From a virus (Duplodnaviria > Caudoviricetes), in IMG/VR virus record IMGVR_UViG_3300028888_000066, positions 1-64,000 of that record: 64,000 bases of DNA. One strand, 5' to 3'. Numbering within the stretch: the stretch's first letter is position 1; the number at the start of each line of letters is the position of its first letter. The position numbers and the translations under genes are program-made. The notes under the pieces are model-generated. The model was not told the origin of the DNA, did not search any database, and was given only the letters and a program-made list of their open reading frames with translations. Of this stretch, positions 692 through 16,544 are shown piece by piece.

Positions 692-788
692 CTAGACCGT
701 TCAATAATTTGTGGGGTTTGAACCCACTCAGTTTTGTTTACAAATAACAATTCTTTTACCCATTTAAAAAATTTGCTGTAACGGTCTA
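692..788 (-). ncRNA. CAGCAA stem-family RNA copy A, enclosing a degenerate tRNA
   Basis: TAGACCGTTACAGCAA...ACGGTCTAG terminal stem with internal T-arm GTGGGTTCAAACCCCAC. Confidence 0.65.
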
Positions 789-793
789 TGAAG

Positions 794-864
794 TCGAAGA
801 TGTCAGAGTCGAACTGCTACTGGTCGTCCCAAGCGACCCGTGTTACCGTTACACTACATCCTCG
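794..864 (-). tRNA. tRNA-Pro(TGG)
   Basis: GGTCG-CTTGGGA-CGACC anticodon arm, TTCGACT T-loop. Confidence 0.9.
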
Positions 865-870
865 TTATAA

Positions 871-974
871 TTCCACGGATAAGGATTTGCACCTTACATA
901 GCTGGCTACCCGCTCAACTTAATGGCAAAATGTCACCAACTTCGCGCAGCGTCTACCTATTCCGCCACCGTGGA
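871..974 (-). ncRNA. tRNA-like RNA with ~50-nt insert replacing the anticodon arm
   Basis: TCCACGG/CCGTGGA acceptor, GGCGGAATAGGTAGACGC D-arm, GTAAG-GTGCAAATC-CTTAT T-arm. Confidence 0.7.
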
Positions 975-1013
975 TAGACGCGGCTTTCGCCGCGAGAAAG
1001 GAGATTTCACTTC

Positions 1014-1196
1014 TTAATCTTTTGCAACAAATTCATTCAAATTGCCTTTTATGTACATCTTATCTCCTTTTAATTCATACTCTTTTAAAATTTCCAGAGC
1101 ATGGGAGAGAGCATAGTAATAATTAATGCTATTGATTCCGAGATCCCTATTTTTGGCTTTCTCTTTTAACTGTTCTAATATCTCAATATCATTCAT
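1014..1196 (-). CDS. hypothetical protein
   Basis: ORF with GGAGAG RBS just downstream of the promoter at 1218-1246. Confidence 0.7.
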   Translation of the reverse strand: MNDIEILEQLKEKAKNRDLGINSINYYYALSHALEILKEYELKGDKMYIKGNLNEFVAKD

Positions 1197-1217
1197 ACTA
1201 TCTCTCCTTACAATAAA

Positions 1218-1246
1218 ATTATACCAGAAATTTTATTCATTGTCAA
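1218..1246 (-). promoter_or_regulatory. sigmaA/sigma70-type promoter
   Basis: TTGACA-17nt-TATAAT. Confidence 0.8.
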
Positions 1247-1499
1247 GTATTTGGTCTTGCATTTCTTCAATGCGTTTTTCATCTGCAATAGACCAATTTG
1301 TTGCAGGCCCAGCCGTTCGCTTAACTTTCTTGCCTTTAGATTTGCAGGCGCATAATGGGCATGAACAATGAATCTTGTTTTTACTATATTGGTGTAAGTT
1401 ATCATAATAATCTTTTTTTAAATGCCAAGTTTTTGTAATATTACGTTTACGTATAGCTTTTTTCCAATCATTATGACGTTTTTCAGCGCGATTCCTCAT
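1233..1499 (-). CDS. hypothetical basic protein (CxCxxC)
   Basis: ORF with AGGTG RBS, HCSCPLC motif. Confidence 0.7.
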   Translation of the reverse strand: MRNRAEKRHNDWKKAIRKRNITKTWHLKKDYYDNLHQYSKNKIHCSCPLCACKSKGKKVKRTAGPATNWSIADEKRIEEMQDQILDNE

Positions 1500-1509
1500 A
1501 AATATCACC

Positions 1510-2289
1510 TTACTTAAAAATTTCTGGATATTGTTGCCTTAATGGCTCAATATAATGATTAGCATACCATTTTACTAAATTGTTACGTAATTCACTATAA
1601 AACTCACAAGTTTGATAAAATGCCTTTAGATAGCTATCTATATTTGAAAATTTCCAAGGTTTTAGTTCGCCACAAAAATGTAATCCATAGATATTATTTT
1701 CTAATGGAATTAATTTATCAAATGTATCAACGGTAATATTTACAAAATATGGATGTGGAATACGATATCCATTATTAGTTTTAAATGGAAACCATAGTTC
1801 TTCGATGATGTCACTTTCCCATAAATTACTATATTGTAACATTGTAATATAATATTTTAACGGATGATTTTTTGGGCAGCATACAAATAATCCGCAAAAC
1901 CCTCGTTCATGCCATCCAAAATCTTCATATAAAGCACCATCATAATAATCAAATAATTCATCAACTGTCTTTAAAAAGAAGCTATCTATATCTAAATATA
2001 CAACTTTATCAAAATTAGTTAAGCTAAATACATTCACTTTTGAAGCAACTGTCTCCAATCTTTTATTGTTCATTGCTTCTTTGGTTGTAATAGAATATTC
2101 AATTACTGGAACTTTTATATATTTTATGTTCTCTTTATTTAAATAATTAACTACTTGATCAAATATATTTTCTGTAACCATTACGTATAGAGGAAAATGA
2201 CTATGTAATTCTTTTAGATTTCTATCTAAAATAATTGCCGCTGGAAGATAATCAACTGAACTTAATAATGTCACATAAGCCTAGTTCAT
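1510..2289 (-). CDS. glycosyltransferase family 8 (TAG read-through)
   Basis: MN(TAG)AYVTLL start, YLDID DxD motif, HFC..KPW motif. Confidence 0.85.
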
Positions 2290-3074
2290 ATATTTACCTC
2301 CGATTTAAATAGCTATGGATATTTTAGTTGTAATGGTATTAAATAATGATCAAAATAAAAGGCTATAATATTATTGCGGTTTTCACTTTGTGGCAGTCCT
2401 TCTTTATAAAAATCATTTTTAAATTTGGCCATAGAATCATAATTCCAAGGCTTTATCTTATTACAAAAATGTACTCCATATATTTTATCCCTAATAGGAG
2501 AGAAAGACTAAAAATCTTGACGTTTTATATTTAAGAAATAAGATGTTGGAATTCGATAATTTGAATCAAATTTAAAAGGAAAAAATAAGTCACCTAAAAG
2601 ATCGCCATCTAATATTGGTAATTTTTCAATTAATAAAAAATAATATGATACTGGATGTAAATAAGGACAAACTACAAATAATCCAGAAAAACCCTTATCA
2701 AACCCTTCATCATACATCGCGCCATCGGGATAATTAAATATTTCATCAATGGTTTTTAAGAAGAAACTATCAGCATCAATATATACCACTTTATCAAATT
2801 CTTCTAAATCAAATAAATTTAATTTAGAAGCAGTATTTAATACAGTATGATTTTTATACTGCTCTTGTACTTCTTTGGAATATTTAATTACTGGTACTTC
2901 AATATAATGAATACATTCTTTTATTAAGTAATATTTTACATCATTAATAATATTTGAAGTTACCATGACGTATAATGGATACTAGTTGTGTAATTCTTTT
3001 AAATTCTAATTTAATATTAAAACTGGTTTAATATAATTTACAGAACTTAAAAGAGTGACATATGCATAATTCAT
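2286..3074 (-). CDS. glycosyltransferase family 8 paralog (TAG read-through)
   Basis: MNYAYVTLL start, YIDAD motif. The HFCNKIKPW motif lies downstream of an in-frame TAG. ATGA overlap with the next gene. Confidence 0.85.
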
Positions 3075-3082
3075 AAATCACC

Positions 3083-3397
3083 TCACATTAAATCATCTTC
3101 CATATAAATAATTTGTTTACCATGACGTACAGCGTACTGAATTTCACTACGAGTACTTGAACCAATATAACCATTCTTATTAATTACATAAATGGCATCG
3201 GCCATATCAATCTTTCTTTTATGAATGTCATCAAGCATTATCTTCTGTTCATCAGAAAAAGTATCACCAGCGTGCCCAAAGCAACCAACGCTAATGACGA
3301 TATTGCCAGCCAGAGTAAGCTCACGATTGATTCGTTCGAAATCATCTTTAAACCTCGTACTTCCACATAATGTTATTACTTTATAGTTACCTATCAT
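3083..3397 (-). CDS. small Rossmann-like protein (nucleoside 2-deoxyribosyltransferase-like)
   Basis: ITLCGSTRF...HKRKIDMADAIYVIN..GYIGSSTRSEI pattern. Confidence 0.65.
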   Translation of the reverse strand: MIGNYKVITLCGSTRFKDDFERINRELTLAGNIVISVGCFGHAGDTFSDEQKIMLDDIHKRKIDMADAIYVINKNGYIGSSTRSEIQYAVRHGKQIIYMEDDLM

Positions 3398-3412
3398 ATA
3401 ATCGCCCCTAAT

Positions 3413-3484
3413 GAGGTTCCGGTCAGAGTCGAACTGACTAAACAAGTTTTGCAGACAAGTCTCCGGCCGCCAGAGTTCGGAACC
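3413..3484 (-). tRNA. tRNA-Cys(GCA)
   Basis: CTGCAAA loop, short D-arm, TTCGACT T-loop. Confidence 0.8.
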
Positions 3485-3493
3485 TATATATTG

Positions 3494-3564
3494 TGGAACC
3501 GCGGGAAATCGAATCCCGATCTTCTGCGTGCAAAGCAGATATTCTACCATTAAACTATGGCCCC
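3494..3564 (-). tRNA. tRNA-Ala(TGC)
   Basis: GGGGCC acceptor with G3-U70, TTTGCAC loop. Confidence 0.9.
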
Positions 3565-3656
3565 ATGGACCGGACGTTTTAATGAGAGTCCGGCAACTCA
3601 CCGCAATATTTGTTTATTTGGCCAGCATATGACTGGTTGCGAAGTTTGCAATTGCG

Positions 3657-3730
3657 TGCCCAGGCTGGGAGTCGAACCCAGAAAACCACGGCTCTGAACC
3701 GCGTACCTATGCCAATTCGGTTACTAGGGC
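3657..3730 (-). tRNA. tRNA-Leu(CAG), short variable loop
   Basis: CGCGG-TTCAGAG-CCGTG. Confidence 0.85.
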
Positions 3731-3816
3731 AAATACCTCCCTGGTTGTGCAGTCAAAGTACCCAGGGCACAAGGATTTTTAGGGGTTTGGCTTGATCTTC
3801 AAATACTGCGCCAATG

Positions 3817-3890
3817 TGCCTAACTTGGGATTCGAACCCAAACTGAGCCGATTTTGAGTCGGTTTCCTCTTCCAATTGGGATAGAAAGGC
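3817..3890 (-). tRNA. tRNA-Leu(CAA), short variable loop
   Basis: ACCGA-CTCAAAA-TCGGC. Confidence 0.85.
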
Positions 3891-3896
3891 ATAAAG

Positions 3897-3969
3897 CAGG
3901 CTGACTAGGATTCGAACCTAGACCAACGGTTTTGGAGACCGCTATGCTACCATTAAACACCATCAGCCT
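3897..3969 (-). tRNA. tRNA-Trp(CCA)
   Basis: GCGGT-CTCCAAA-ACCGT. Confidence 0.9.
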
Positions 3970-4103
3970 TCACCAAGTTTCGTTGTTACTTAGCATAGCG
4001 CCGCAGTTTTCTCTACCGTACCAACTACATCGTTTTGTGTAGCAATTCGGACGTATACGGAATTTACGTGCATCATAAGATGCCTGAGGTCGCAACCTCT
4101 GAG

Positions 4104-4181
4104 TCGGGATGGGTAGATTCGAACTACCGAAAACCTCCTGTTTATCAGACAGGCGCTCTAAACCAACTGAGCTACATCCCG
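4104..4181 (-). tRNA. tRNA-Ile(GAT)
   Basis: CCTGT-CTGATAA-ACAGG. Confidence 0.9.
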
Positions 4182-4389
4182 GAAGCTTCCCCTGTGCCAA
4201 CTTATATACGTAACGGGCCACAGGGAGACCGACTACACATATAATGTAACTAAACTCACGTTATATCTCACTCTGCATTGTATATTAGCTTTCATCCCAA
4301 GGGTATATATCGTTTCAACTTGCTTGGGCTAGAGATTGCCGCCACCTTTCCGCGCCTTGTAGTCACAGCCATGTCAGGTGGATTAGTTA

Positions 4390-4620
4390 TTACCAATCTT
4401 TATTTTGTCTACCTTCTTTTACAATCTCTTTCATATAATTTTCAAAGAAAGCAAACAATTCTTCATCTTCAGTATAAAAGAAGCCATTAGGATTTTGTAC
4501 TGCCTGAAGTCTTGCCCCAAGCATATTTTCCATCAGTTGCCCAAAGCGCCAATTCGGCACTTGATGCCAAATAGTTTTAAGTTCATTACAAAACTTATCA
4601 ATACGATTCGGATCTCTCAT
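4390..4620 (-). CDS. hypothetical phage protein (MRDPNRI...W..VP.WRFGQL type)
   Basis: ORF with AGGAG RBS downstream of the promoter at 4649-4677. Confidence 0.8.
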   Translation of the reverse strand: MRDPNRIDKFCNELKTIWHQVPNWRFGQLMENMLGARLQAVQNPNGFFYTEDEELFAFFENYMKEIVKEGRQNKDW

Positions 4621-4648
4621 AACAAGGCTCCTTTCTTTCTACATATAA

Positions 4649-4677
4649 ATTATAATATAATTTATATTAAAAGTCAA
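4649..4677 (-). promoter_or_regulatory. sigmaA-type promoter
   Basis: TTGACT-17nt-TATAAT. Confidence 0.8.
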
Positions 4678-4680
4678 ATA

Positions 4681-4890
4681 TTAATCCATATATGGTTCAG
4701 CAGGCATCCAAGCAACTACATCATATGTCATATCTCTATAATTAAATTTATCCCAAACCCATCTATATTTAGTACCACTTAAATAATAATCCATTTTATC
4801 TGTTAATCGTACATATTCTCCCCAATTAAAAGTTACAAAATATGAACCACTAACCTTAGGCTGCGATTCTTTACAAGGAATCCATTCCAT
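4681..4890 (-). CDS. DUF551-like protein
   Basis: MEWIPC...P...VVAWMP.EPY pattern, GAGG RBS. Confidence 0.75.
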   Translation of the reverse strand: MEWIPCKESQPKVSGSYFVTFNWGEYVRLTDKMDYYLSGTKYRWVWDKFNYRDMTYDVVAWMPAEPYMD

Positions 4891-4915
4891 ATAATTTACC
4901 TCAATAATATAAATT

Positions 4916-4991
4916 TGGTGCCCAGAGTTGGAGTCGAACCAACCAATAGTGGATTTTCAGTCCACGGTGTTCACCGGTTCACCATCTGGGC
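4916..4991 (-). tRNA. tRNA-Phe(GAA)
   Basis: GTGGA-CTGAAAA-TCCAC, CCA encoded. Confidence 0.9.
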
Positions 4992-4996
4992 ATAGG

Positions 4997-5069
4997 GGTG
5001 CTAGATGGGACTCGAACCCACTACACGCAGAGCCACAATCTACGGCCTATCCGCTTCGGCTTCTAGCAC
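4997..5069 (-). tRNA. tRNA-His(GTG)
   Basis: GTAGA-TTGTGGC-TCTGC. Confidence 0.9.
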
Positions 5070-5071
5070 AG

Positions 5072-5143
5072 TACCGGAGCAGGGAGTCGAACCCTGATCA
5101 AGAGATTAGAAGTCTCTTGTCGTATCCGTTGGACCACTCCAGC
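5072..5143 (-). tRNA. tRNA-Arg(TCT)
   Basis: AGAGA-CTTCTAA-TCTCT. Confidence 0.9.
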
Positions 5144-5147
5144 ATAG

Positions 5148-5219
5148 TGCGCGTGACAGGACTCGAACCTGCGACTCATGGATTAAAAGTCCATTACCTT
5201 ACCACTTGGTTACACGCGC
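5148..5219 (-). tRNA. tRNA-Lys(TTT)
   Basis: ATGGA-CTTTTAA-TCCAT. Confidence 0.9.
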
Positions 5220-5262
5220 AAGATATAATGTTTAAATCTCCTATGTTTTCGTTTCATTTCAA

Positions 5263-5406
5263 TCACTTCCTATTATATTTCCAAATATAATAATTATCAA
5301 TCATATTTGACCACCAAATAATAAATCGAGTTCTAAATTGCCACCATTTTACATCTGGTAAACTATCGAGATATTTTTGCAGTGGTTTAAAGTTATTTAG
5401 ATTCAT
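5263..5406 (-). CDS. small Trp-rich hypothetical protein (47 aa)
   Basis: MNLNNFKPLQKYLDSLPDVKWWQF..., AGGAGTG RBS. Confidence 0.55.
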   Translation of the reverse strand: MNLNNFKPLQKYLDSLPDVKWWQFRTRFIIWWSNMIDNYYIWKYNRK

Positions 5407-5417
5407 AGAATCACTCC

Positions 5418-5966
5418 TTATAGTTGATTCCATTCTTCATCCGAATATTTTTTAATATCAGTTTTTCGTCTTGGTAAATTATATTTATCGCACCATTTAC
5501 GAATAGCATTTCCATCTACTCCAAATTGACGTCCAAGAGCTTCAAAAGATTGCATTCTAATTAATTGTTTTAATTCTTCACGATTTGGACGTTCAACCTT
5601 TCTTTGTGCAATTCTACTACAGTCTAAACATAATTTTGCTCTGTATTCTTTATGTTTACCACAAATAGGACAAATATTATTTGGTATTAAATCAACAATA
5701 TAACTACCATCATTTAATTGTTTTAGCACATTTTCATTTTCATTTAATTTATGAAAACGAGTATGTTCAGATTTAGTATGAAATACTAATAGATTATTAT
5801 AATTATTATTTGCACGATTGCCATCTCGATGATGAACAACCTCTTCATCTTTAAGGGCGCGGCCTAACATTTCTTCTGCTTTAATAATGTGTTCATAGAC
5901 AACACCCCATGAATTAGCACGATGATGTTGTGGCATAAAAATCATAACATATCCATTAGCGTCCAT
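5418..5966 (-). CDS. HNH homing endonuclease with C-terminal HTH
   Basis: YEH...VHHRDGNRANN...NL HNH motif, zinc ribbon, HTH-like tail. Free-standing in the tRNA array. Confidence 0.85.
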   Translation of the reverse strand: MDANGYVMIFMPQHHRANSWGVVYEHIIKAEEMLGRALKDEEVVHHRDGNRANNNYNNLLVFHTKSEHTRFHKLNENENVLKQLNDGSYIVDLIPNNICPICGKHKEYRAKLCLDCSRIAQRKVERPNREELKQLIRMQSFEALGRQFGVDGNAIRKWCDKYNLPRRKTDIKKYSDEEWNQL

Positions 5967-5984
5967 ATTAAATCCTCCTAAAAA

Positions 5985-6059
5985 TACACCAACGGGGACT
6001 CGAACCCATCGAACTCCAGCATTAAGAGTGCTGTACTCTACCAATTGAGTTATTGGTGC
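5985..6059 (-). tRNA. tRNA-Lys(CTT)
   Basis: CAGCA-CTCTTAA-TGCTG. Confidence 0.9.
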
Positions 6060-6167
6060 GTATTCCGTGGCTCTTTTACTTCGCCACGGCGAAGGTTATT
6101 CTCACTACCGCGAACAACTTTAAAGGGCGTCCATAGCGTCCATGCTATCGCTGGCTATTATAGGATT

Positions 6168-6242
6168 TGGTACCGGCGGGTGGATTCGGACCACCGACCT
6201 ACGGGATATGAATCCGTTGCTCTACCTCTAAGCTACACCGGC
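6168..6242 (-). tRNA. tRNA-Met/Ile2(CAT)
   Basis: ACGGA-TTCATAT-CCCGT, CCA encoded. Confidence 0.85.
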
Positions 6243-6245
6243 ATA

Positions 6246-6321
6246 TGGTACCCGCTGACGGACTTGAACCGCCGACCGTCCGGATGTAAGCCGGAAGCTC
6301 TGCCAACTGAGCTAAACGGGC
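6246..6321 (-). tRNA. tRNA-Val(TAC)
   Basis: TCCGG-CTTACAT-CCGGA, CCA encoded. Confidence 0.9.
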
Positions 6322-6325
6322 ATAA

Positions 6326-6477
6326 ATTGGGTGTGCTATTACGCTAAATCTTTCATCTATTGTCCTTGGCACATCATACTCATGGGGCGGATAATCGTAA
6401 GCCCATGATACATTTAGCACCAAAGGAGATTTAAGAACTCTTTAGCTGATGGCTGCCTCTAAGCCTACAGTCCCAAT
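6326..6477 (-). ncRNA. 23S rRNA GTPase-associated-centre (L11-binding) mimic with ~90-nt insertion
   Basis: GGACTGTAGGCTTAGAGGCAGCCATCAGCTAAAGA...AGCGTAATAGCACAC, closed by ATTGGG/CCCAAT. Confidence 0.75.
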
Positions 6478-6577
6478 AATGTTTGCCTTTACTCACGCAT
6501 GAGTGTTTGCTACTACCGACATCTCGGCGGAAGTGGTTTTCATTCTTCCTAGTCTCCGAAAAGATTAGCTGCTATTG

Positions 6578-6865
6578 TGGTGGAGCTGACGAGTTCTGCC
6601 CCTCGTGTCCAGCCTATAATTCATATTAAGAAATACTTACACGATAGTCAGTTAGGCACTGACAGCCAACATTAATAATAAGTGACGCGCTAATCTATCT
6701 CTGAGCCGCAAGTACTTACCGATTAGCTGGTGTACTGTTTAAGCTAGCCAAATTAAGCGGCTAAAGCGAAATCAAATTCGTCGTTTCTTTTAGATTGCTG
6801 CGTAAGGTGCTCCGCCTACCCGTGTCCTTAATACTTCATATACCTGTCGATACTATTTCAGCCCC
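6578..6865 (-). ncRNA. ssrA: tmRNA, tag peptide (A)DEFDFALAA
   Basis: 5' GGGGCTGAAATAGTATCGAC, 3' CAGCTCCACCA, internal frame GACGAATTTGATTTCGCTTTAGCCGCTTAA. Confidence 0.92.
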
Positions 6866-6870
6866 ATGAG

Positions 6871-6943
6871 AGCCGCGAGAGGGACTCAAACCCTCGACCT
6901 AGTGATTACTAATCACTCGTTCTATCAGCTGAACTACCGCGGC
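6871..6943 (-). tRNA. tRNA-Thr(AGT)
   Basis: AGTGA-TTAGTAA-TCACT. Confidence 0.88.
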
Positions 6944-6949
6944 ATAAAG

Positions 6950-7022
6950 TACGCCGTGCAGGACTCGAACCCGCATCAATAGGGCCGTAACCTATCGTTT
7001 TGTCCAGTTAGACTAACGGCGT
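6950..7022 (-). tRNA. tRNA-Arg(ACG)
   Basis: ATAGG-TTACGGC-CCTAT. Confidence 0.88.
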
Positions 7023-7130
7023 ATAATACCAACCACTCGCGTCCCACCGCCCTGTTCCAATCTCCTTATCGGGCCACTGAATTCCCGCATCGGAGAAGGT
7101 CATGCGCCTAAGCCTTGTCCGTTGGTATAG

Positions 7131-7164
7131 AGCCTCCAGACGGATTCGAACCGCCATACGAGGC
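7131..7164 (-). ncRNA. tRNA minihelix (acceptor stem plus T-arm only)
   Basis: GCCTC-GTAT-GGCGG-TTCGAAT-CCGTC-TG-GAGGC-T. Confidence 0.55.
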
Positions 7165-7167
7165 AAG

Positions 7168-7240
7168 AGCTCCCACTCGGATGCGCGCCGAGGTTTATTG
7201 CTTACGAAGCAATTGTACTAGACTACTGTACGATAGGAGC
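7168..7240 (-). tRNA. tRNA-Thr(CGT) with degenerate T-loop
   Basis: ATTGC-TTCGTAA-GCAAT anticodon arm, T-arm CTCGG-CGCGCAT-CCGAG. Confidence 0.75.
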
Positions 7241-7272
7241 ATATGAGGGGAATTTCCCCTCTGTACATAAAA

Positions 7273-7301
7273 ATTATAGTATAATTTTTATAAAAAGTCA
7301 A
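7273..7301 (-). promoter_or_regulatory. sigmaA-type promoter driving a tRNA block
   Basis: TTGACT-17nt-TATAAT. Confidence 0.8.
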
Positions 7302-7431
7302 ATATTAAATTCTTGGTGTTTTATTAAAGTATTCAATTAATAAGAATATGAGGAGAAGGGCGCCAAGAATTATGGCGCCCCAATCCGTATCAAATAAAGT
7401 TTCAATAAGTACATTCACTTGTATCACCCTC

Positions 7432-9810: not shown

Positions 9811-9880
9811 TTGTCTCCCTCCTTATATGAAAATAGGGGCACCCGATGGTGTCCCAAGAGTGCATTTCACCTTGCCAGGT

Positions 9881-9966
9881 TGGTGCCCGAGGTCGGATTC
9901 GAACCGACACTCCCTTGCGAGAAGCGGATTTTAAGTCCGCTGCGGCTGCCTTTACGCCACTCGGGC
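9881..9966 (-). tRNA. tRNA-Leu(TAA)
   Basis: GCGGA-CTTAAAA-TCCGC, long variable arm, CCA encoded. Confidence 0.92.
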
Positions 9967-9975
9967 ATAAAAGGA

Positions 9976-10167
9976 AGATTAGGATTTTGTTTTTTTGGAG
10001 CTCCTGGCGCTACCGAGTATTAAGCCAAATAGCAGCTTTCATGGCTCCCAATCTCCACTGGTGTAAAACCCTCTATTTGTGTCGCCAGCTGTGCGACCGG
10101 AGGGATAATAGTTAGGATTTGTATGCGACAGAGTATTAAGCAAAATAGCCGATCATTGCTCCTAACT
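9976..10167 (-). repeat. two copies of an unknown stem-closed RNA motif (9976-10054, 10110-10167)
   Basis: Shared GGAGCnATGA...GCTATTTkGCTTAATACTCkGTnGC...ACAAA(A)TCCTAA, with different but complementary terminal stems. Confidence 0.65.
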
Positions 10168-10660
10168 TTATTCTTGTTTAGGGAACTTCCCAGAGTCAAG
10201 AGAAACTCGTCTACAGTGCATACGTTGCCGTCCGCGCGGTTTAAGCAGGACTTTCTACCTGCCGTATGATGTAGTGATGGACCCGGGCCTTACAGCCAGC
10301 CCAACGGACAGTTTTTACTCATGTTGGAGACAGGCAGGGTAACTTTGCTACCCACGCGTAGGTATTACCGCATTGCGCCTGAGCATGTACTCATTAAGCA
10401 CGTACCATAGCAGAATCCGATTCTTTAACGTACACTTTACTGCTCTATTGCACGGCCAGATGGTCTATTTTTTACTTGCTGTTGCCACTGTACATCGAAA
10501 GCGCAAGCTATATATTTCTCAATCCCCTATAGTGGGTTGCCCTACTCCAATTTATATACCGCTTTCCGAAGCGCAGGGGCGGTGGCCACCTTATATGGTA
10601 GGACGTAGGATGCTATAGATAACTATCCTCGCGATGGCTCTAAACATACTACCAAAATTA

Positions 10661-10731
10661 CTAGGCGCGGAAATAATGGAGATTAATAAATCAATTTCTA
10701 TTTAGCATAAAAGATTTGCTGCGCGCGCCTA
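10661..10731 (-). ncRNA. CAGCAA stem-family RNA copy B
   Basis: TAGGCGCGCGCAGCAA...CGCGCCTAG. Confidence 0.65.
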
Positions 10732-10837
10732 AATGTGATATAGCTATTATTCTTTAAAATACCGTAAATAACCATATCATAGGAACCAACAACGTCACCT
10801 CACATTTAATAGGTCGTTCTGTCCTCTTTACATATTT

Positions 10838-10866
10838 ATTATAGCAGAATTTCTGCTATATGTCAA
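10838..10866 (-). promoter_or_regulatory. sigmaA-type promoter
   Basis: TTGACA-17nt-TATAAT. Confidence 0.8.
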
Positions 10867-10877
10867 ATATTTAGTTG

Positions 10878-10940
10878 CTAGGCACATCTTTTTCTACTTC
10901 ATTTGCTTAATATAAAGAAATAAGTTGCTGCTTGTGCCTA
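10878..10940 (-). ncRNA. CAGCAA stem-family RNA copy C
   Basis: TAGGCACAAGCAGCAA...TGTGCCTAG. Confidence 0.65.
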
Positions 10941-11032
10941 AGTAAATAGTTCTTCTCTCGCTTATTTATGATATGGGGCACTAACCCATAAATAAGTCAG
11001 AGAATGAGAAGCATCATTTTAGTGTTTCCTCC

Positions 11033-11572
11033 TTACGGCCATTCCCCGAGTGGCTTTCCAAGATTTGCGCGTTCAACATCGGTATTATAGAAAACGCCTT
11101 GAGTAGCTTCGCCAGTTAGAAGTTCTTCAGCAATAGTCTGATATAAGGTGCTAATAATGCCGTGGCAATCGTTTAGATTGTCAGCAGCGAACTGAACTAC
11201 ACAGTTTTTAAATATTACATATGTAGTACCAATCCACTGATAACCTTCTTCCGCAGGACATACGGCATCAGCAAAAGCAGGATTTCCTTTAAACGCAGTT
11301 TTAAATAGTTCAACCTTGCTTGTAAACGCACGATTGCTTGGTACGCCATCTACCATTACTTCAAGTGTTACATTACCAAAATTAACTTCAGAAGGTAGAA
11401 TTCTCTGTAATGCAGCGACTTTATCTCCATTGTTACAGGCTAGAACAACACGAGGATGTTCGCCAGAAAAATCAGTATTGAAAGCAATCTGAGGATCGCC
11501 ATCAAATAGTGCTTCTAGTTTTCTAATTACAATTGTCCAAGGTGGTAGAATTTTTAGTCTGGGTTCTGTCAT
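11033..11572 (-). CDS. hypothetical protein
   Basis: 179-aa ORF from MTEPRL with GAGG RBS. Confidence 0.8.
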   Translation of the reverse strand: MTEPRLKILPPWTIVIRKLEALFDGDPQIAFNTDFSGEHPRVVLACNNGDKVAALQRILPSEVNFGNVTLEVMVDGVPSNRAFTSKVELFKTAFKGNPAFADAVCPAEEGYQWIGTTYVIFKNCVVQFAADNLNDCHGIISTLYQTIAEELLTGEATQGVFYNTDVERANLGKPLGEWP

Positions 11573-11976
11573 ATTGTTGTACCTCACATAATATAGAGTA
11601 TGCAGTTTACTTCGCTTCTTTTGGTATACCGTTTTCCGCTCCTTCTTGCCACATATCACTACTGACCTGCCCGCTTGTTATTTCAAGTGTACTTAATTGC
11701 TTTCGCGGCAGGTTTCGTGCCGGTGGTAGTTTAACTGCAAAATCCGTGTTAACGGTTGCCCGTGTTTATAGTTACGGGACCGAGCCGACACGAATATTTA
11801 TACACTACGTGCTAAGTGTAATGCCATTTTAATATCACTCTTTTGGGATGGCTCCCTCACCACGGCCGTCGTCGCTCACGAGACACAATCCAATGTTTCA
11901 ACAAGTCCACATCGAGTTGCCGCTGGACCTCAACCAGCCGGTCATATCCTGTCAATTCAGGCTTTATGTGGTTGAA

Positions 11977-12053
11977 TGGTACCCGATGGGAGATTTGAAC
12001 TCCACGTCTGCACCTTGAAAGGGTGCTGTGCTAACCTATTACACCAATCGGGC
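11977..12053 (-). tRNA. tRNA-Glu(TTC)
   Basis: GCACC-CTTTCAA-GGTGC, CCA encoded. Confidence 0.9.
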
Positions 12054-12148
12054 ATAATAGTCTTTTAAGGTAAAGACTTTCATCATAACCCCACATCTGC
12101 ATTAATGTTTATTTACTGCCAAGCTACATTTGGTCATCAAAGCACGAG

Positions 12149-12220
12149 CGACCTTACGCAGAATTGAACTGCGGTTTTAGGCGTGACAAGCCTACGTAAT
12201 CACCACTATACGATAAGGCC
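12149..12220 (-). tRNA. tRNA-Asp(GTC)
   Basis: TAGGC-TTGTCAC-GCCTA. Confidence 0.9.
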
Positions 12221-12308
12221 AATTATAGGGCACGTTTTATAGTGCGGTGCCCAAGCACTATATGCGATCAAGACAATGGCGGTAACTGGCATTTTACCAC
12301 CATTGGAG

Positions 12309-12425
12309 CGGCCTCTGAGAGAATCGGACTCCCATCAAGCGGTTAATTGCGCGATGCTGGACTTGCACCAACTAATCTCTATTGTATCGCACCAGCCGCC
12401 CGCTCTACCACTGAGCTAAGAGGCC
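12309..12425 (-). tRNA. tRNA-Asn(GTT) interrupted in the anticodon by a 46-nt insert (12347-12392)
   Basis: GGCGG-CTG[46 nt]TTAA-CCGCT. Removing the insert restores the CTGTTAA loop. Confidence 0.75.
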
Positions 12426-12457
12426 ATATGAGGGATTTTCTCCCTCTCAACATAATA

Positions 12458-12486
12458 ATTATACATTAAATTTCACTAAAAGTCAA
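12458..12486 (-). promoter_or_regulatory. sigmaA-type promoter
   Basis: TTGACT-17nt-TATAAT. Confidence 0.8.
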
Positions 12487-13413
12487 ATACTAATCTGGTA
12501 ATTTTTCATTAGTCAAAATATCATGTGTAAATCGTAATATATTTATCGGAAATGCTACTTTTCCTCTATACTATAAGCACTGTTTGAGACGTGGATTTCC
12601 TAATAATAACTTATTAGGATCAATCTCTTTTTCAAAGTGCCTGTAGAATATGCGCGCACCCGCCCATGCATCCTCTATATAAATAGGGCGTTCTGCCGCG
12701 GTGCGAATGAACCAATAATATAAGGCAATCGCAATTTGATTTATCTCTGTGGCAGTATTGATATTGTTGTTCCTGCAAATATTAATAGTATGAATAGATG
12801 TTAATGATAATGCGCGAGTCTAATCTTTATATAAACTTATATTATCATTCTTTTGTGTTAATGAATTTTCATCTTTTATCCATTCAATAATTGGAACATC
12901 TTTATATACAATTGGTCGTCCATCAACTTCTGTACATAGTCTACAGGTGCGATTAAATCCTATATCTTCATTCAAATATGAAGATTCGGCCGCGAATGTA
13001 ATATTATATTTCTCTAAAAATGCGCGCTTATATATTTTACCATGCATCCTATTATCAGTTTCTTTAGTTATTCCATCCTTATAGATATAAGGAAAACTAA
13101 TAATATTAGCATCTGGATTCTCTTTAATTGCTTTTATTACTTTATCTTGACTTGCATCAGAAATAAATATATCACCAGTATCTATAAACATAATCCAAGG
13201 ATTATCACTCTTATCAATACCTCGCTGACGCGCGCATCCGGGCCCACTATTTATATTCAATCTAAATAATTGTGCCGCATTTAGTGGGAAAATTGGAGTC
13301 TCTTTAGAATGGTCGTCTATAACTGTTACTTTAAATAAATTCTAATTAATAGAATTAAGTGTATTCAATAATCCTAATCGATTATTATAGTATGGAATAA
13401 TTAAATCAATCAT
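12466..13413 (-). CDS. glycosyltransferase family 2 (TAG read-through)
   Basis: MIDLIIPY...VIDDHS...NSGPGCARQRGI...MFIDTGD. Confidence 0.85.
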
Positions 13414-15073
13414 TCTTTATTTCTCCTATAAAACGATTTATATTTATGCGTGGTATTAGCGGATTACTATATTTAATTAATGTGGATACAGCTTTCTGAT
13501 AATATTGGTTTAGCATATTTTGATTAATTAGTTCAAATTGCTTATAGACATATTTATAAAAATATTTTAGCGCCTATAAATTATCTTTTAGATTATCTGG
13601 ATGTTCTTTAGCGCAACGTAAATAACATTCATACAAATAAACTAAATAATATGTTATTAATCGTGCTGGATATTTCCAATGTAGATTATTTTCTCTACAT
13701 ATTTTTACAATATGCTCTGCATTATAAGATAATCCAGGGATGTGTTTAAAGTAATAAAACGCTCCATTATTTGCCTATGTAATTGAGTCTTTATCTAATA
13801 TACGTCTATATAATACATTAGAATTAAAAGATAGGCGCACATTTTTATCATAAGTAGAAATATATTCTAAAATTAATTTACATGGAGCCATGAAGCCACG
13901 ATCTTCATTAGAGTATGAACCTTCTGGAATGATATTAAATCTAATGTGATATAATTCAATAAATTCACGACTGAAAATTTTTCCCCATAATAAAGTAGTA
14001 TCTTTTTTGAAGTAAGTTCCGCCATCGCCATTCCATGAAGTATAACTAAATATATAAGTTTGACTATAATTAATAATATTTTTAATTGCTTTAGAGAGTG
14101 CCACGCGTGAAGCAATACAATCTCCAGTATCTATAAACATAATATATGGATTATTTGTATGTTCTATTCCATATTGCCGCGCGGCTCCAGGGCCAGAATT
14201 ATGTTCTAACTATAAGAAATTAACTGTTGGAAAATCTTTTTTTAGTTCTTCATAACCTTCTCTTTTAGTAGAACAATCATCAACTACTGTAATAGTTGCC
14301 ATATTATAATTAATTGAATTTAAAGTTTCACGCAATCCATTTACATTATTATAATATGGAATAATTATATCTAGTGCAAAATTATCTGGCACATTGCGTT
14401 TAATTTCAATATCTCTATACTTCTATATAAGTGGAAGTTTTTGCCAATCTTTTACTGCGGCATAATGAATAATTTTTTCTTTTCCTAATTGTAAGCCTGT
14501 ATAATTATTTCTATTATACATATGATTCAATACAAGAATATGGCCTTGACACGCCATATTAATGGCAGTTTGTTCTGTTTCTTCAAAATAATATGTATGT
14601 AAATCTTCTACTAACTTTTTATCTAGTCCATCTTCGCGCCATTTCTTTAAATTTATCATAGCCACACCCATATTTATATAAGTAAGATTGGGTTTGCTTT
14701 TCTATGGTTCTAGACAGCCAGCAATATAATAATTATTTAAATTAAGTTCCCAAAGTTCAGATATATTTTCACGTACAATTGTATCATTATCTATAGTTAA
14801 AATACGATCTAAATGCGGAAAAATCTAACAAAAAACTACACGCAATAATACCATATAACTGCATCTGTTTTTCATATTGATACAATCTGATTTAAACCAC
14901 TATTGCTCACTAACATTTATACATTCTACCTCTGGCGGCAGTTCATAAGGAAATGTATCATCTTCAATTAAAAAATAAATTTTATCTACATTAGAATGAA
15001 TTAGGAGAGATTTCATAGAGGGTATCATATCCTAATATACATTGCGTGTACCGCAATAAACCGCTGCTCTCAT
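13406..15073 (-). CDS. GT8-GT2 fused glycosyltransferase (TAG read-through)
   Basis: Single frame joining ORFs 14671, 14392 and 14140. GT8 (DND, N.GV..INL..WR, HYA) followed by GT2 (IIIPYYN, VVDD, FIDTGD). Confidence 0.8.
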
Positions 15074-15184
15074 TATTTTCCTCCTTTATACACGAATAGG
15101 CGGTATAGTTAAACCATACCGCGTAAGCAGCAGTAGGTTGCTAGCCGCACATCGGTTTAGTCATCGTTTTTGCTAAGATGAGCG

Positions 15185-15257
15185 TGGCAAACTTGGGAGT
15201 CGAACCCAATCCTCGAAGGTTATGAGCCTCGCGACTTAACCGCTTGTCCTGTCTGCG
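15185..15257 (-). tRNA. tRNA-Met(CAT), initiator-like
   Basis: CTCATAA loop, mismatched C1 position. Confidence 0.8.
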
Positions 15258-15356
15258 ATATAAGAGGTTAACTTGTAGCTATCAAGTTAACCGAGGTAAG
15301 ATTAGCTAAATCAATACTTGTATAGCCGCTCCATAGCTCACCAGCAGGAATATTCC

Positions 15357-15433
15357 CGCCAGTGTGGGATTCGAACCCAAGACACTCATACAAAATACTG
15401 TCCCTCTACGCAGATCAACCCTGCGCTACCGGC
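15357..15433 (-). ncRNA. degenerate tRNA-like element
   Basis: Acceptor GCCGGT/ACTGGC, T-arm TGGGTTCGAATCCCA, no regular anticodon arm. Confidence 0.5.
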
Positions 15434-15477
15434 TACAACTTCTTGTTAATATATGCCAGTTGCCGGCACGATCGCGA

Positions 15478-15548
15478 TACCCTCAGAGGATTTGAACCTC
15501 ATTACCGCCCACGGGCGATGTTTTCTCCGACTTAAACTATCTTTGGGC
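15478..15548 (-). ncRNA. tRNA-like element lacking an anticodon loop
   Basis: D-arm GTTT/AAAC, TCGCC-CGTG-GGCGG, T-arm GAGG-TTCAAAT-CCTC. Confidence 0.55.
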
Positions 15549-15554
15549 ATGAAG

Positions 15555-15684
15555 CTAGACACATCTATGTAGTACGCCGCTCTACCAACTGAGCTAACTG
15601 CGACATAAGGTCGCAGTATTGGACTCGAACCAATGACACGCGGATCCTCAATCATCTTTAGAAAAAGGTTGCTGTATGTGTCTA
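15555..15684 (-). ncRNA. circularly permuted tRNA-like RNA (YrlA-like), CAGCAA family copy D
   Basis: Order is T-arm, closed acceptor hairpin, D-arm, inside TAGACACATACAGCAA...TGTGTCTAG. Confidence 0.8.
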
Positions 15685-15688
15685 TAAG

Positions 15689-15759
15689 AGCACCATACCA
15701 GATTTGAACTGGTGAAAACACGTTGGCAACGTGCTATGTTGCCACTACATCAATGGTGC
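15689..15759 (-). tRNA. tRNA-Gly(GCC)
   Basis: GCACG-TTGCCAA-CGTGT. Confidence 0.9.
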
Positions 15760-15800
15760 GCGCCCGTATTTTCTGGAGATACGGAACTCACTGTGACGTC

Positions 15801-15876
15801 TGCATCCGTAGAGGAGTCGAACCTCAGTTCGGTCCGATTTCGGCCGGACCTAGACTGCCGTAGCCTGAACAGGATG
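15801..15876 (-). ncRNA. atypical tRNA-like RNA
   Basis: CATCC/GGATG acceptor, GGTCCG-GCCGAAAT-CGGACC arm, GAGG-TTCGACT-CCTC. Confidence 0.5.
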
Positions 15877-15907
15877 ATATTGCCCTACTCCGAACTTCAT
15901 ATCGGTA

Positions 15908-15977
15908 TGCCGCAAATGGAATCGAACCATTTATTGCAGTTTACTGACCGCCGAGGAGCTCCACTCCTCCCTACGGT
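15908..15977 (-). ncRNA. atypical tRNA-like RNA
   Basis: 6-bp D-stem GAGGAG/CTCCTC, GCGGT-CAGTAA-ACTGC, AATGG-TTCGATT-CCATT. Confidence 0.5.
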
Positions 15978-16286
15978 TTTCGGACAATAACCTTTGATTT
16001 AATCCTCTTTTATAAAGCGCCGATCAAATGCTGGCAGGTTATCCCAACTTTGCGCTAACGATAGCTATCTTCAGTTTGCATAGCTTGACGCACTATGAAT
16101 AACCGATGAAATCTTTACGATCTAGTCGACACCTTTTGCTACGTCACACCTAGCAGAGTGGGGAGTCTAGACATACCTTCTCTCTATCGCGCCATCCCAG
16201 TTGTCTTATTTACTTGCCTCAAGGTGGATTAGCAAGTCCCTCAAGCACTTCGTTTCGCGCTACTCCATGCTACCTATTGGGAAATA

Positions 16287-16350
16287 CTAGGCACAATAAA
16301 CTCGATTGTTTAACAGACAATTGTTCAAAAAAAATTGCTGCATGTGCCTA
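16287..16350 (-). ncRNA. CAGCAA stem-family RNA copy E
   Basis: TAGGCACATGCAGCAA...TGTGCCTAG. Confidence 0.65.
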
Positions 16351-16492: not shown

Positions 16493-16511
16493 TCATCCTT
16501 TCAACATAATA

Positions 16512-16540: not shown

Positions 16541-16544
16541 ATAT

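What the first reader, a model, noticed from the sequence alone, without database searches (positions are those of the whole stretch)
692..16350. Five-copy RNA family: conserved CAGCAA stem carrying interchangeable cargo
Copies at 692-788, 10661-10731, 10878-10940, 15555-15684 and 16287-16350 share 5'-TAGRC(nnn)-N-N-R-CAGCAA...complement-CTAG-3'. Compensatory changes keep the stem paired (GACCGT/ACGGTC, GGCGCG/CGCGCC, GGCACA/TGTGCC, GACACA/TGTGTC). The interiors are unrelated: a degenerate tRNA, a permuted tRNA, and three AT-rich loops. Inference: a modular RNP system with a protein-binding handle plus variable effector, like Y RNAs, possibly for tRNA repair or as decoys for host defence nucleases.
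Basis: partly seen in the sequence, partly recalled or inferred. Interest (0 to 1): 0.85.

Follow-up and report, generated by a model that had tools for sequence, protein, structure and literature searches.

The report
Phage Y-like RNAs with CAGCAA handle
Five small RNA genes hidden among this rumen phage's tRNA genes share one conserved "handle" and each carry a different insert, some of them tRNA look-alikes; they belong to a widespread, uncatalogued RNA family that sits beside genes for a Ro60-shaped RNA-binding protein in other phages and bacteria.

Summary
All five copies exist and all read on the minus strand, like the roughly 25 phage tRNA genes around them. Each has an 8-9 bp closing helix (UAGRCNNN / NNNGYCUA), then 1-2 bases and an invariant CAGCAA, then a variable cargo.

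- **Cargoes:** E4 is a YrlA-type tRNA mimic, E1 carries a T-arm, E5 a tRNA-Asn anticodon stem-loop, and E2/E3 AU-rich hairpins.
- **Family:** a covariance model trained only on other phages ranks these five as the window's top hits. The helix covaries strongly across 94 relatives and between orthologues.
- **Partner protein:** the family co-occurs with DUF2828 genes, whose predicted fold is Ro60-like. That holds for 13/13 complete element-bearing phages, and 35/35 model hits beside bacterial DUF2828 genes are on the gene's strand, 34 of them upstream.
- **Gap in this record:** it has no such gene. Its collinear relative carries one about 3.4 kb past where this contig ends.
- **Expression:** sheep-gut RNA-library contigs cover E2 and E5.
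- **Not shown:** binding and function are inferred.

The handle is not the canonical Y-RNA motif and there is no TROVE gene, so this is a variant, not YrlA. It matches the Dictyostelium Class I RNA signature. This scan has already noted the family in at least 111 other genomes; I found no paper or Rfam entry for it.

The parts
692..788 (-). E1, handle RNA of 97 nt. The 5' clamp strand is 788-780, CAGCAA is 778-773, the 3' clamp strand is 701-693, and a conserved G follows at 692. The cargo has a hairpin at 734-750 and a T-arm at 711-727. E1 starts 4 nt after tRNA-Pro (864-793).
   Evidence: Rfam tRNA 24.7 bits at 705-773. R1 25.4 bits, E 0.022. The orthologue in G084 has two compensatory stem changes and a different 57-nt cargo.
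10661..10732 (-). E2, handle RNA of about 71 nt. The clamp is UAGGCGCG / CGCGCCUA and the cargo is AU-rich hairpins. It lies about 100 nt downstream of a consensus sigma-70-type promoter (10866-10838).
   Evidence: R1 24.4 bits, E 0.034. Two compensatory stem pairs against G084. It lies inside an RNA-library contig spanning 10559-10857, identical in sequence, depth 227. Promoter.
10878..10941 (-). E3, handle RNA of about 63 nt. The clamp is UAGGCACA / UGUGCCUA and the cargo is one AU-rich hairpin.
   Evidence: Best R1 hit of the window, 32.5 bits, E 9e-4. The G084 orthologue differs at only 2 of 65 positions, and those two are the partners of one stem pair (G-C to A-U).
15555..15684 (-). E4, handle RNA of 130 nt with a YrlA-type tRNA mimic as cargo: T-arm 15634-15618, closed acceptor-like hairpin 15617-15597, D-arm 15594-15579. 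The clamp is 15684-15676 with 15564-15556, and CAGCAA is 15674-15669. E4 starts 3 nt after tRNA-Gly (15759-15688).
   Evidence: Rfam YrlA RF02553 38.2 bits, E 3e-5, all 114 model positions, below the gathering score of 69. Fold. In the G084 orthologue the handle is unchanged, while the T-stem, acceptor hairpin and inner stem change in a compensatory way. R1 gives only 18.8 bits because the cargo is long.
16287..16350 (-). E5, handle RNA of 64 nt whose cargo is a tRNA-Asn-like anticodon stem-loop (16321-16305; 5 bp plus loop CUGUUAA). It lies 67 nt downstream of tRNA-Ile (16492-16418), which follows a near-consensus promoter (16540-16512).
   Evidence: R1 28.0 bits, E 0.007. The anticodon stem-loop is conserved in G084. 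The same stem-loop sits inside a whole tRNA body on a handle in L144 and L124. An RNA-library contig spans 16005-16613, identical in sequence, depth 40. Promoter.

Best explanation
The five elements are genes for small structured RNAs, transcribed from the minus strand together with or between the phage's tRNAs. Each RNA has two modules.

- **Handle.** An 8-9 bp helix joins the RNA's two ends, followed on the 5' strand by 1-2 bases and an invariant, probably unpaired CAGCAA.
- **Cargo.** A free insert: a YrlA-type tRNA mimic (E4), a T-arm with hairpins (E1), a tRNA-Asn anticodon arm (E5), or AU-rich hairpins (E2, E3).

They belong to a large uncatalogued family. Elsewhere its members lie directly beside, and on the same strand as, a gene for a DUF2828/DUF7788 protein predicted to fold like the ring-shaped Ro60 protein.

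The most likely mechanism follows the Ro60/Y-RNA model. The handle docks on the Ro60-like ring. The cargo then either presents tRNA-like surfaces to tRNA-binding enzymes or nucleases, or tethers an effector, during infection.

**Shown here:** the copies exist; the helix covaries; the family is widespread; it is linked by gene neighbourhood to DUF2828; DUF2828 has a predicted Ro60-like fold; and E2 and E5 are present in RNA-library contigs.

**Inferred:** that the handle binds the protein, that the RNAs are discrete processed molecules, and what the complex does. In this record the protein gene is not present. By synteny it should lie about 3.4 kb beyond the contig's left end.
For: 1. **Structure.**
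 - Across 125 phage stretches, 371 of 1230 CAGCAA sites have an exact 7-nt closing complement downstream, against 51-80 in four matched controls. With a stem of 8 bp or more the figure is 301 of 1288, against about 5% for control hexamers.
 - In a model-derived alignment of 94 members, 97.1% of stem cells pair against 68.7% in shuffles. There are 171 double-change cells against 44.5, and 0 of 500 shuffles reach the observed value. All 7 pairs covary, and slid controls score 0.07-0.20 against 0.825.
 - Orthologues in the collinear phage G084 show five compensatory double changes in the clamps of E1, E2 and E3. E3 differs from its orthologue only by one such pair.
2. **RNA rather than DNA.**
 - The motif is strand-asymmetric and always co-oriented with the tRNAs.
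 - In stems with a single mismatch, G.U-type mismatches outnumber A.C-type 11 to 3.
 - All eight sigma-70-type promoter matches of 11/12 or 12/12 lie on the minus strand.
 - Sheep-gut RNA-library contigs cover E2 and E5 at depth 40-227, while the glycosyltransferase genes between them sit at 0-3.5.
3. **Membership.** Model R1, trained on 28 elements from other phages, 13 of them beside DUF2828 genes, ranks E3, E5, E1, E2 and E4 as the top five hits of the 64-kb window.
4. **Partner protein.**
 - DUF2828 is present in 41 of 50 element-bearing viral records and in 13 of 13 that are at least 90% complete. In records where no element was seen in the fetched stretch the figures are 11 of 29 and 6 of 14.
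 - Elements sit directly upstream of the gene in seven of twelve loci inspected.
 - In 80 bacterial DUF2828 loci, all 35 R1 hits are on the gene's strand and 34 are upstream, many ending less than 150 nt before the start.
 - The DUF2828 model (pLDDT 72.6) has Ro60/TROVE structures as its ten best PDB matches over its full length.
5. **This phage.** The window is collinear with G084 from window position 12131 down to 14. G084's DUF2828 gene lies about 3.4 kb past that point.
6. **Precedent.**
 - Ro60 with Y RNAs in bacteria and phages (PMC4201824, PMC12135203).
 - Bas63 gp130, which I confirmed to be DUF2828 with three R1 hits next to it. A preprint reports that it counters the Ppl defence (10.1101/2024.10.10.617714).
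Against: - No Ro60-like gene of either kind (TROVE or DUF2828) is in the 132-kb record. The synteny argument is indirect.
- No experiment shows that any CAGCAA RNA binds any DUF2828 protein.
- The handle lacks the GNCGAA/CGAA motif that canonical Ro60 recognises.
- In the Bas63 preprint, gp130 alone restored T7 growth on Ppl cells. That activity therefore does not obviously need the phage's RNAs.
- The control group for co-occurrence is imperfect: only a stretch of each control record was scanned for elements, and 38% of the controls carry DUF2828.
- The covariation alignment was fitted to the model's structure.
- The RNA evidence comes from assembled contigs. These cannot show strand, ends or discrete molecules.
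Confidence: 0.68

Rival explanations
1. The elements are processing or folding aids for the long tRNA-array transcripts. In this view the clamp helix insulates neighbouring tRNAs or marks cleavage sites for host RNases. There is no dedicated protein partner, and the cargo is tRNA debris.
For: E1 and E4 start 3-4 nt after a tRNA and E5 67 nt after one. The elements are confined to the tRNA region. Some cargoes look like tRNA fragments.
Against: - An invariant hexamer kept across very different phages and bacteria points to specific recognition, not just a helix.
- In bacteria the elements sit upstream of DUF2828 genes without tRNA arrays being required.
- Cargoes are conserved and covary between orthologues: the E4 arms, the E5 anticodon stem-loop, and E3, which is identical. 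Debris would not behave this way.
Confidence: 0.12
2. They are canonical Y RNAs of the YrlA/YrlB type that work with a TROVE-type Ro60 (Rsr) supplied by the host, not with DUF2828.
For: E4 matches Rfam YrlA over all 114 model positions (E 3e-5). Some gut bacteria encode Rsr: the control genome Bacteroides thetaiotaomicron scores for TROVE.
Against: - The YrlA score of 38.2 is below the gathering score of 69.
- The 5'-strand motif is CAGCAA, not GNCGAAN0-1G (PMC4201824).
- TROVE is absent from this record, from four relatives and from 50 element-bearing records. DUF2828 is present in 41 of those 50 and sits adjacent to the RNAs.
Confidence: 0.08
3. They are DNA-level elements: miniature inverted-repeat mobile elements, or recombination or protein-binding sites. 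The terminal inverted repeats would act as DNA, and transcription would be incidental.
For: Terminal inverted repeats flank variable inserts, there are several copies per genome, and an HNH endonuclease gene lies in the array at 5418-6044.
Against: - The inverted repeats differ between copies within one genome yet stay complementary. A single transposase or binding protein would need constant ends.
- The asymmetric CAGCAA is always on the tRNA strand.
- G.U-type mismatches are favoured over A.C-type, 11 to 3.
- Copies are at syntenic positions in G084, so they are not freshly transposed.
Confidence: 0.04
4. E4, and perhaps E1, are permuted or split tRNA genes that mature into decoding tRNAs, as in the permuted tRNA genes of red algae.
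For: In E4 the 3' half of a tRNA precedes the 5' half. The acceptor strands are perfectly complementary and the T- and D-arms are normal.
Against: - There is no anticodon loop. Its place is taken by the clamp and CAGCAA.
- The acceptor stem is closed by a 5-nt loop, exactly as in YrlA.
- Three of the five copies carry no tRNA body at all.
Confidence: 0.02

Closest known systems
YrlA/YrlB Y RNAs with Rsr (bacterial Ro60), also in TROVE-encoding mycobacteriophages (Rfam RF02553; Chen et al. 2014, PMC4201824)
   Same: The RNAs are modular. A helix formed by the two ends carries a conserved purine-rich motif on its 5' strand, with a variable second module. One RNA per genome mimics a tRNA with a T-arm, a closed acceptor-like hairpin and a D-arm, and E4 aligns to the full model. 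There are several RNAs per genome. In relatives they are encoded next to, and on the strand of, a Ro60-shaped protein gene.
   Different: The motif is CAGCAA instead of GNCGAAN0-1G. The score is below Rfam's gathering threshold. The neighbouring protein is DUF2828/DUF7788, not Pfam TROVE, and its match to Ro60 is detectable here only by predicted fold. The cargoes also include bare anticodon arms and T-arms, and the RNAs are scattered through tRNA arrays.
Thermus phage phiLo Ro60 with Yrl1/Yrl2 (PMC12135203; PDB 9KOP, 9L5Y)
   Same: A phage-encoded Ro60-type ring has small RNAs encoded just upstream. The RNAs have a helix joining the 5' and 3' ends plus a short conserved motif needed for binding. 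9KOP is the best structural match of the DUF2828 model.
   Different: The phiLo protein is a TROVE Ro60 and its RNAs use CGAA. A complex with host PNPase was shown for phiLo. Nothing comparable is known for the CAGCAA family.
Class I RNAs of dictyostelid social amoebae (Kjellin et al. 2021, PMC7919456)
   Same: The architecture and signature are the same. A short covarying stem joins the 5' and 3' ends. It is followed immediately on the 5' strand by CCUUACAGCAA (the paper's supplementary files; E1 here reads GUUACAGCAA and E4 CAUACAGCAA). Then comes a variable interior, and a conserved G just after the 3' strand. The paper gives about 60 nt for Class I RNAs, and E2, E3 and E5 are 63-71 nt.
   Different: Class I RNAs are eukaryotic genes with their own upstream promoter element. 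The known direct binder is an RRM protein (Rnp1A/Cibp). No link to DUF2828 has been reported, and I did not test whether dictyostelids encode one. Common descent is not shown.
Bas63 (Escherichia phage JohannRWettstein) gp130, a Ro60-like counter-defence protein (PhageMaP preprint, 10.1101/2024.10.10.617714)
   Same: gp130 is a DUF2828/DUF7788 protein at the head of the tRNA array. Three CAGCAA-handle RNAs lie among the first tRNAs behind it. The authors guessed that some 'tRNAs' there might be Y RNAs.
   Different: It is a different phage lineage and host. The preprint tested the protein alone against the Ppl system and did not identify the RNAs. This window's record lacks the protein gene.

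Membership tests
YrlA, Y RNA-like (Rfam RF02553) | Reaches the family's curated Rfam score (69 bits) | tested here: not met
   E4 scores 38.2 bits, E 3e-5. The other four copies give no hit at E up to 5.
YrlA, Y RNA-like (Rfam RF02553) | tRNA-like domain: T-arm, acceptor-like stem closed by a loop, D-arm | tested here: met
   Met for E4 only, with compensatory changes in the G084 orthologue. E1 has only a T-arm. E2, E3 and E5 have none of these arms.
YrlA, Y RNA-like (Rfam RF02553) | GNCGAAN0-1G (CGAA) Ro60-binding motif on the 5' strand of the terminal helix (PMC4201824, PMC12135203) | tested here: not met
   All five copies have CAGCAA at that position.
YrlA, Y RNA-like (Rfam RF02553) | Encoded within a few kb of a TROVE-domain Ro60/Rsr gene, on the same strand | tested here: not met
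   PF05731 is absent from this record, from four relatives and from 50 element-bearing viral records.
CAGCAA-handle RNAs (uncatalogued family, defined in this scan) | 7-10 bp covarying helix joining the two ends, then 1-3 nt, then CAGCAA on the 5' strand | tested here: met
   5 of 5 copies. Family-wide covariation. Matched controls. Orthologue compensatory changes.
CAGCAA-handle RNAs (uncatalogued family, defined in this scan) | Recognised by a covariance model built from members in other genomes | tested here: met
   R1 gives E3 32.5 bits, E5 28.0, E1 25.4 and E2 24.4 (E 9e-4 to 0.034). E4 gets 18.8 bits (E 0.43), limited by its long cargo. These are the five best hits of the window.
CAGCAA-handle RNAs (uncatalogued family, defined in this scan) | DUF2828/DUF7788 (Ro60-like) gene in the same genome, usually adjacent | tested here: inconclusive
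   None is found in the 132-kb record, which is 74% complete. The collinear relative G084 has one about 3.4 kb beyond the point where this contig ends.
Dictyostelid Class I RNAs (PMC7919456) | Short stem joining the ends, plus the 11-nt motif CCUUACAGCAA next to its 5' strand | tested here: met
   Met in part. The stem and the last 6-8 motif positions match. The paper's near-invariant positions 6, 9, 10 and 11 are kept in all five copies, and position 3 (U) in E1 only.
Dictyostelid Class I RNAs (PMC7919456) | Dictyostelid gene with the DUSE promoter element about 60 nt upstream | tested here: not met
   This is a phage genome with sigma-70-type promoters. It is not a member of that eukaryotic gene family, whatever the deeper relationship.
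tRNA (Rfam RF00005) and permuted tRNA genes | Complete cloverleaf with an anticodon loop, reaching 29 bits | tested here: not met
   E1 scores 24.7 bits. ARAGORN calls none of the five. E4 has no anticodon loop.

The most novel reading that the evidence does not exclude
The phage and bacterial CAGCAA-handle RNAs and the dictyostelid Class I RNAs may be one ancient RNA family whose shared partner is the DUF2828 Ro60-like ring. DUF2828 also has eukaryotic members. That would make a second, cross-domain Ro/Y-type ribonucleoprotein system. In phages, its interchangeable cargoes (anticodon arms of Asn, Lys and others, T-arms, whole tRNA mimics) would serve as programmable baits in the conflict over tRNAs.
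Probability: 0.25. Interest if true: 0.9.

Novelty: new variant of a known kind. Interest (0 to 1): 0.7.

Why it matters
Ro60 with its Y RNAs is a classic but still poorly understood RNA-surveillance particle.

- **A second, much more widespread version.** Here it has a different protein family (DUF2828) and a different RNA handle. DUF2828 homologues occur in 695 GenBank phage records and in many gut and rumen bacteria. The RNA cargoes are visibly tRNA parts.
- **Unannotated genes in tRNA arrays.** The gaps in phage tRNA arrays hold real genes that annotation pipelines miss or miscall.
- **A candidate RNA component for a counter-defence protein.** One member of the protein family has been reported to counter a bacterial defence system.
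- **Culturable test systems.** Felix-O1-like coliphages carry the family, so binding and function can be tested directly.
- **A lead on Class I RNAs.** The match to the Dictyostelium Class I signature offers a concrete, testable partner hypothesis for an RNA class whose mode of action is still not established.

For this particular window the value is as a clean five-member example. It includes a case where the cargo differs entirely at the orthologous position in a close relative (E1).

Tried and rejected
- **TROVE and RtcB.** Searched for TROVE (PF05731) and RtcB (PF01139) in the record. Neither is present.
- **DUF2828 in this record.** Searched with Pfam and with my own HMM built from 12 phage proteins, heuristic filters off. 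Nothing found.
- **A divergent Ro-like protein.** Suspected the 483-aa ORF at 17477-18928. It is a radical SAM enzyme.
- **GenBank relatives.** blastn of window 10000-17500 against GenBank phages gave no match.
- **Relatives by protein.** The radical SAM protein alone found no viral relatives. An alignment of it did.
- **Permuted tRNA idea.** Considered a permuted tRNA processed through a bulge-helix-bulge site for E4. Rejected because there is no anticodon loop and the layout is that of YrlA.
- **Promoter idea.** Considered that the 5' clamp strand is promoter DNA, since many family members are preceded by TATAA. Rejected because that strand covaries with the 3' strand.
- **Alignment.** MAFFT alone did not put the 3' clamp strands in register. 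I used it only to seed a covariance model and took the model's own alignment for the pair counts.
- **RNA ends.** The RNA-library runs are held as contigs, so they say nothing about RNA ends or strand. Low cover over E4 and E3 allows no conclusion.
- **Possible sixth copy.** The window's sixth-best R1 hit (51818-51881, 18.2 bits, E 0.55) has a mismatched stem and I treat it as noise.
- **tmRNA CAGCAA.** The CAGCAA at about 6800 lies inside the tmRNA-like gene and has no proper clamp.
- **Eukaryotic DUF2828.** The protein atlas shows eukaryotic DUF2828 clusters but gives no information on dictyostelids.

Full report
**What is there**

The window is the first 64 kb of a 132,621-bp IMG/VR virus record, linear and 74% complete by CheckV. 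The phage reads TAG as a sense codon: open reading frames only become long when TAG is translated, and it encodes a tRNA with anticodon CUA. About 25 tRNA genes lie between 287 and 23164, all on the minus strand.

Read on the minus strand they share one layout: a closing helix of 8-9 bp (UAGRCNNN pairing with NNNGYCUA), then 1-2 bases, then CAGCAA, a U-rich run, a variable interior, and a G after the 3' strand. The exact pattern occurs five times in the window and nowhere else in the 132 kb. A relaxed scan and a covariance-model scan found no further copies.

**The cargoes**

- **E4 (15684 to 15555).** It carries a T-arm, an acceptor-like stem closed by a 5-nt loop, and a D-arm. That is the layout of the bacterial Y RNA YrlA. 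It aligns to all 114 positions of Rfam RF02553 at 38.2 bits, E 3e-5, below the curated 69 bits.
- **E1.** It has a T-arm and a sub-threshold tRNA score of 24.7 bits.
- **E5.** It holds a 5-bp stem with loop CUGUUAA, a tRNA-Asn anticodon arm. In other phages the same arm sits inside a whole tRNA body whose acceptor stem is replaced by the handle.
- **E2 and E3.** These are AU-rich hairpins.

**Is the helix real, and is it RNA?**

A pattern scan of IMG/VR returned 120 stretches, and relatives found through neighbouring genes added more.

- **Closing stems.** In 1.27 Mb of these stretches, 301 of 1288 CAGCAA sites have a closing stem of at least 8 bp within 200 nt, against about 5% for six control hexamers. 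An exact 7-nt reverse complement is found downstream at 371 of 1230 sites. The reversed, complemented, upstream and direct-repeat controls give 51-80.
- **Model trained elsewhere.** I built covariance model R1 from 28 elements of other phages, none from this window. It ranks E3, E5, E1, E2 and E4 as the five best hits of the window on either strand.
- **Covariation.** In the model's alignment of 94 hits, 97.1% of stem cells pair against 68.7% after shuffling. There are 171 cells with changes on both sides against 44.5 expected, and 0 of 500 shuffles reach the observed value. All seven pairs covary, and sliding the partner by 1-3 columns drops the score from 0.825 to 0.07-0.20. That alignment is fitted to the structure, so the orthologue comparison below carries independent weight.
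- **Orthologues.** The closest relative, G084, is collinear with the window and has a counterpart for each element. E3 differs at two positions out of 65, and these are the two partners of one stem pair. E1 and E2 each show two compensatory pairs. E4 keeps its handle while its T-stem, acceptor hairpin and inner stem change in a compensatory way. E1's counterpart carries a different, shorter cargo at the same site.
- **Evidence for RNA on the CAGCAA strand.** The motif has a fixed orientation relative to the tRNAs. G.U-type mismatches exceed A.C-type 11 to 3. All eight near-consensus sigma-70-type promoters are on the minus strand, including ones upstream of E2 and of tRNA-Ile/E5. Sheep-gut RNA-library contigs are identical to the window across E2 (depth 227) and E5 (depth 40), while the protein-coding genes between them sit at depth 0-3.5. 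Contigs cannot show RNA ends or strand.

**The partner**

A YrlA-like RNA suggests Ro60, but TROVE is absent from this record, from four relatives and from 50 element-bearing records. Earlier notes of this scan pointed to DUF2828, which I then tested myself.

- **Co-occurrence in phages.** PF11443 is present in 41 of the same 50 records and in all 13 that are at least 90% complete. In records where the fetched stretch showed no element the figures are 11 of 29, and 6 of 14 complete ones. That control is imperfect.
- **Adjacency in phages.** In seven of twelve DUF2828 loci inspected, elements lie directly upstream on the same strand. One locus has six in a row.
- **Adjacency in bacteria.** In 80 bacterial DUF2828 loci, mostly gut and rumen Bacillota but including isolates, all 35 R1 hits are on the gene's strand and 34 are upstream. 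Many end within 150 nt of the start codon.
- **Fold.** A model of the DUF2828 protein from a relative (pLDDT 72.6) has Ro60/TROVE structures as its ten best PDB matches over its full length: phage phiLo Ro60, D. radiodurans Rsr, and Xenopus and human Ro60. A sequence profile search against PDB found nothing, so the relation is visible only by fold.
- **Annotation.** The protein is PHROG 850, 'RNA-binding protein'. Homologues occur in 695 GenBank phage records, some annotated 'Ro-like RNA binding protein'.
- **Cultured phages.** In Salmonella phage Mushroom, and in Bas63, the RNAs sit among the first tRNAs right behind the gene.

**This record's missing gene**

Neither Pfam nor a custom profile finds DUF2828 in the 132 kb. 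The 483-aa ORF in the array is a radical SAM enzyme. However, window position 14 aligns to G084 position 45,334, and G084's DUF2828/DUF7788 gene starts about 3.4 kb further on. The simplest reading is that the gene lies just off the left end of this contig. This is inference.

**Comparison with what is known**

The design is that of Ro60/Y RNA systems (PMC4201824, PMC12135203). Membership in YrlA fails on score, on the binding motif (CAGCAA, not GNCGAA) and on the neighbouring protein family.

The handle matches the published signature of dictyostelid Class I RNAs. These have a short covarying terminal stem followed by CCUUACAGCAA, a variable interior, and a G after the 3' strand (PMC7919456 and its supplementary sequences). 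Whether that reflects common descent is open.

A preprint reports that Bas63 gp130, which I confirmed to be DUF2828, counters the Ppl defence and is Ro60-like, and it guesses that Y RNAs may hide among the tRNAs. There the protein alone sufficed in T7, so that activity may not need the RNAs.

I found no paper on DUF2828 as an RNA-binding partner and no Rfam family for the handle. This scan had already noted the family in at least 111 other genomes.

**Verdict**

The Y-RNA-like reading is the best explanation (about 0.7) but rests on gene neighbourhood and a predicted fold. What the particle does is unknown. I rate it a new variant of a known kind and of high interest as a family. This window is a clean but incomplete instance.

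Noticed in passing
window 6578-6865 (-): A phage-encoded tmRNA-like gene: Rfam tmRNA 46.1 bits, just under the gathering score of 47, E 1.5e-15. Its tag reading frame ends ...NDEFDFALAA-stop. ARAGORN did not call it.
   Followed up: partly
window 23549-23614 (-), 10276-10406 (-), 10248-10303 (-): Matches to orphan Rfam motifs first found in rumen metagenomes: cow-rumen-4 (60.7 bits, above threshold), cow-rumen-3 (70 bits, below 86.7) and DUF3800-XI (34.4, below 37.8). All lie on the tRNA strand inside the array.
   Followed up: no
window 15780-16286 (-) and 10500-10660 (-): Unannotated non-coding stretches with the highest depth in the sheep-gut RNA libraries (160-1500, against 0-3.5 for nearby genes). 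Both are conserved in the relative G084. They are probably further structured RNAs with no Rfam match.
   Followed up: no
window 23076-23164 (-), and genome-wide: TAG is read as a sense codon: many ORFs open only with TAG translated. An 89-nt long-arm tRNA with anticodon CUA is encoded at the edge of the array. I did not determine which amino acid it carries.
   Followed up: partly
window 17477-23154 (-): A cluster of two radical SAM enzymes (17477-18928, 18876-20276), a 337-aa ORF with no database match, and a YcaO-domain protein (21274-23154) sits next to the tRNA array. This suggests a peptide- or RNA-modification pathway.
   Followed up: partly
window 1218-16785 (-): Eight sigma-70-type promoter matches of 11/12 or 12/12 (TTGACA-17-TATAAT), all on the minus strand. 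Examples are 10866-10838 and 1246-1218. This suggests a host with classical -35/-10 promoters and several transcription units within the array.
   Followed up: no
window 7432-9810 (-): A 792-aa ORF without any TAG codon lies in the middle of the tRNA array. It has Pro/Thr-rich repeats and a SpaA-like prealbumin-fold domain, and its local G+C is higher (about 0.42-0.44).
   Followed up: no
L127, L133, L134, L011 (elements next to DUF2828 genes): Many short family members carry a 5-bp stem with loop CUUUUAA, a tRNA-Lys(UUU) anticodon arm. After T-loops are excluded, the commonest anticodon-like loops in the family are Asn (9), Lys (7), Ser (6), Arg (4) and Tyr (4).
   Followed up: partly
L176 (genome contigs): A 7-kb contig binned into an Acutalibacteraceae MAG encodes a DUF2828 protein 98% identical to that of relative G004. 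This is a weak hint at the host lineage of this phage group, or a phage contig mis-binned.
   Followed up: no
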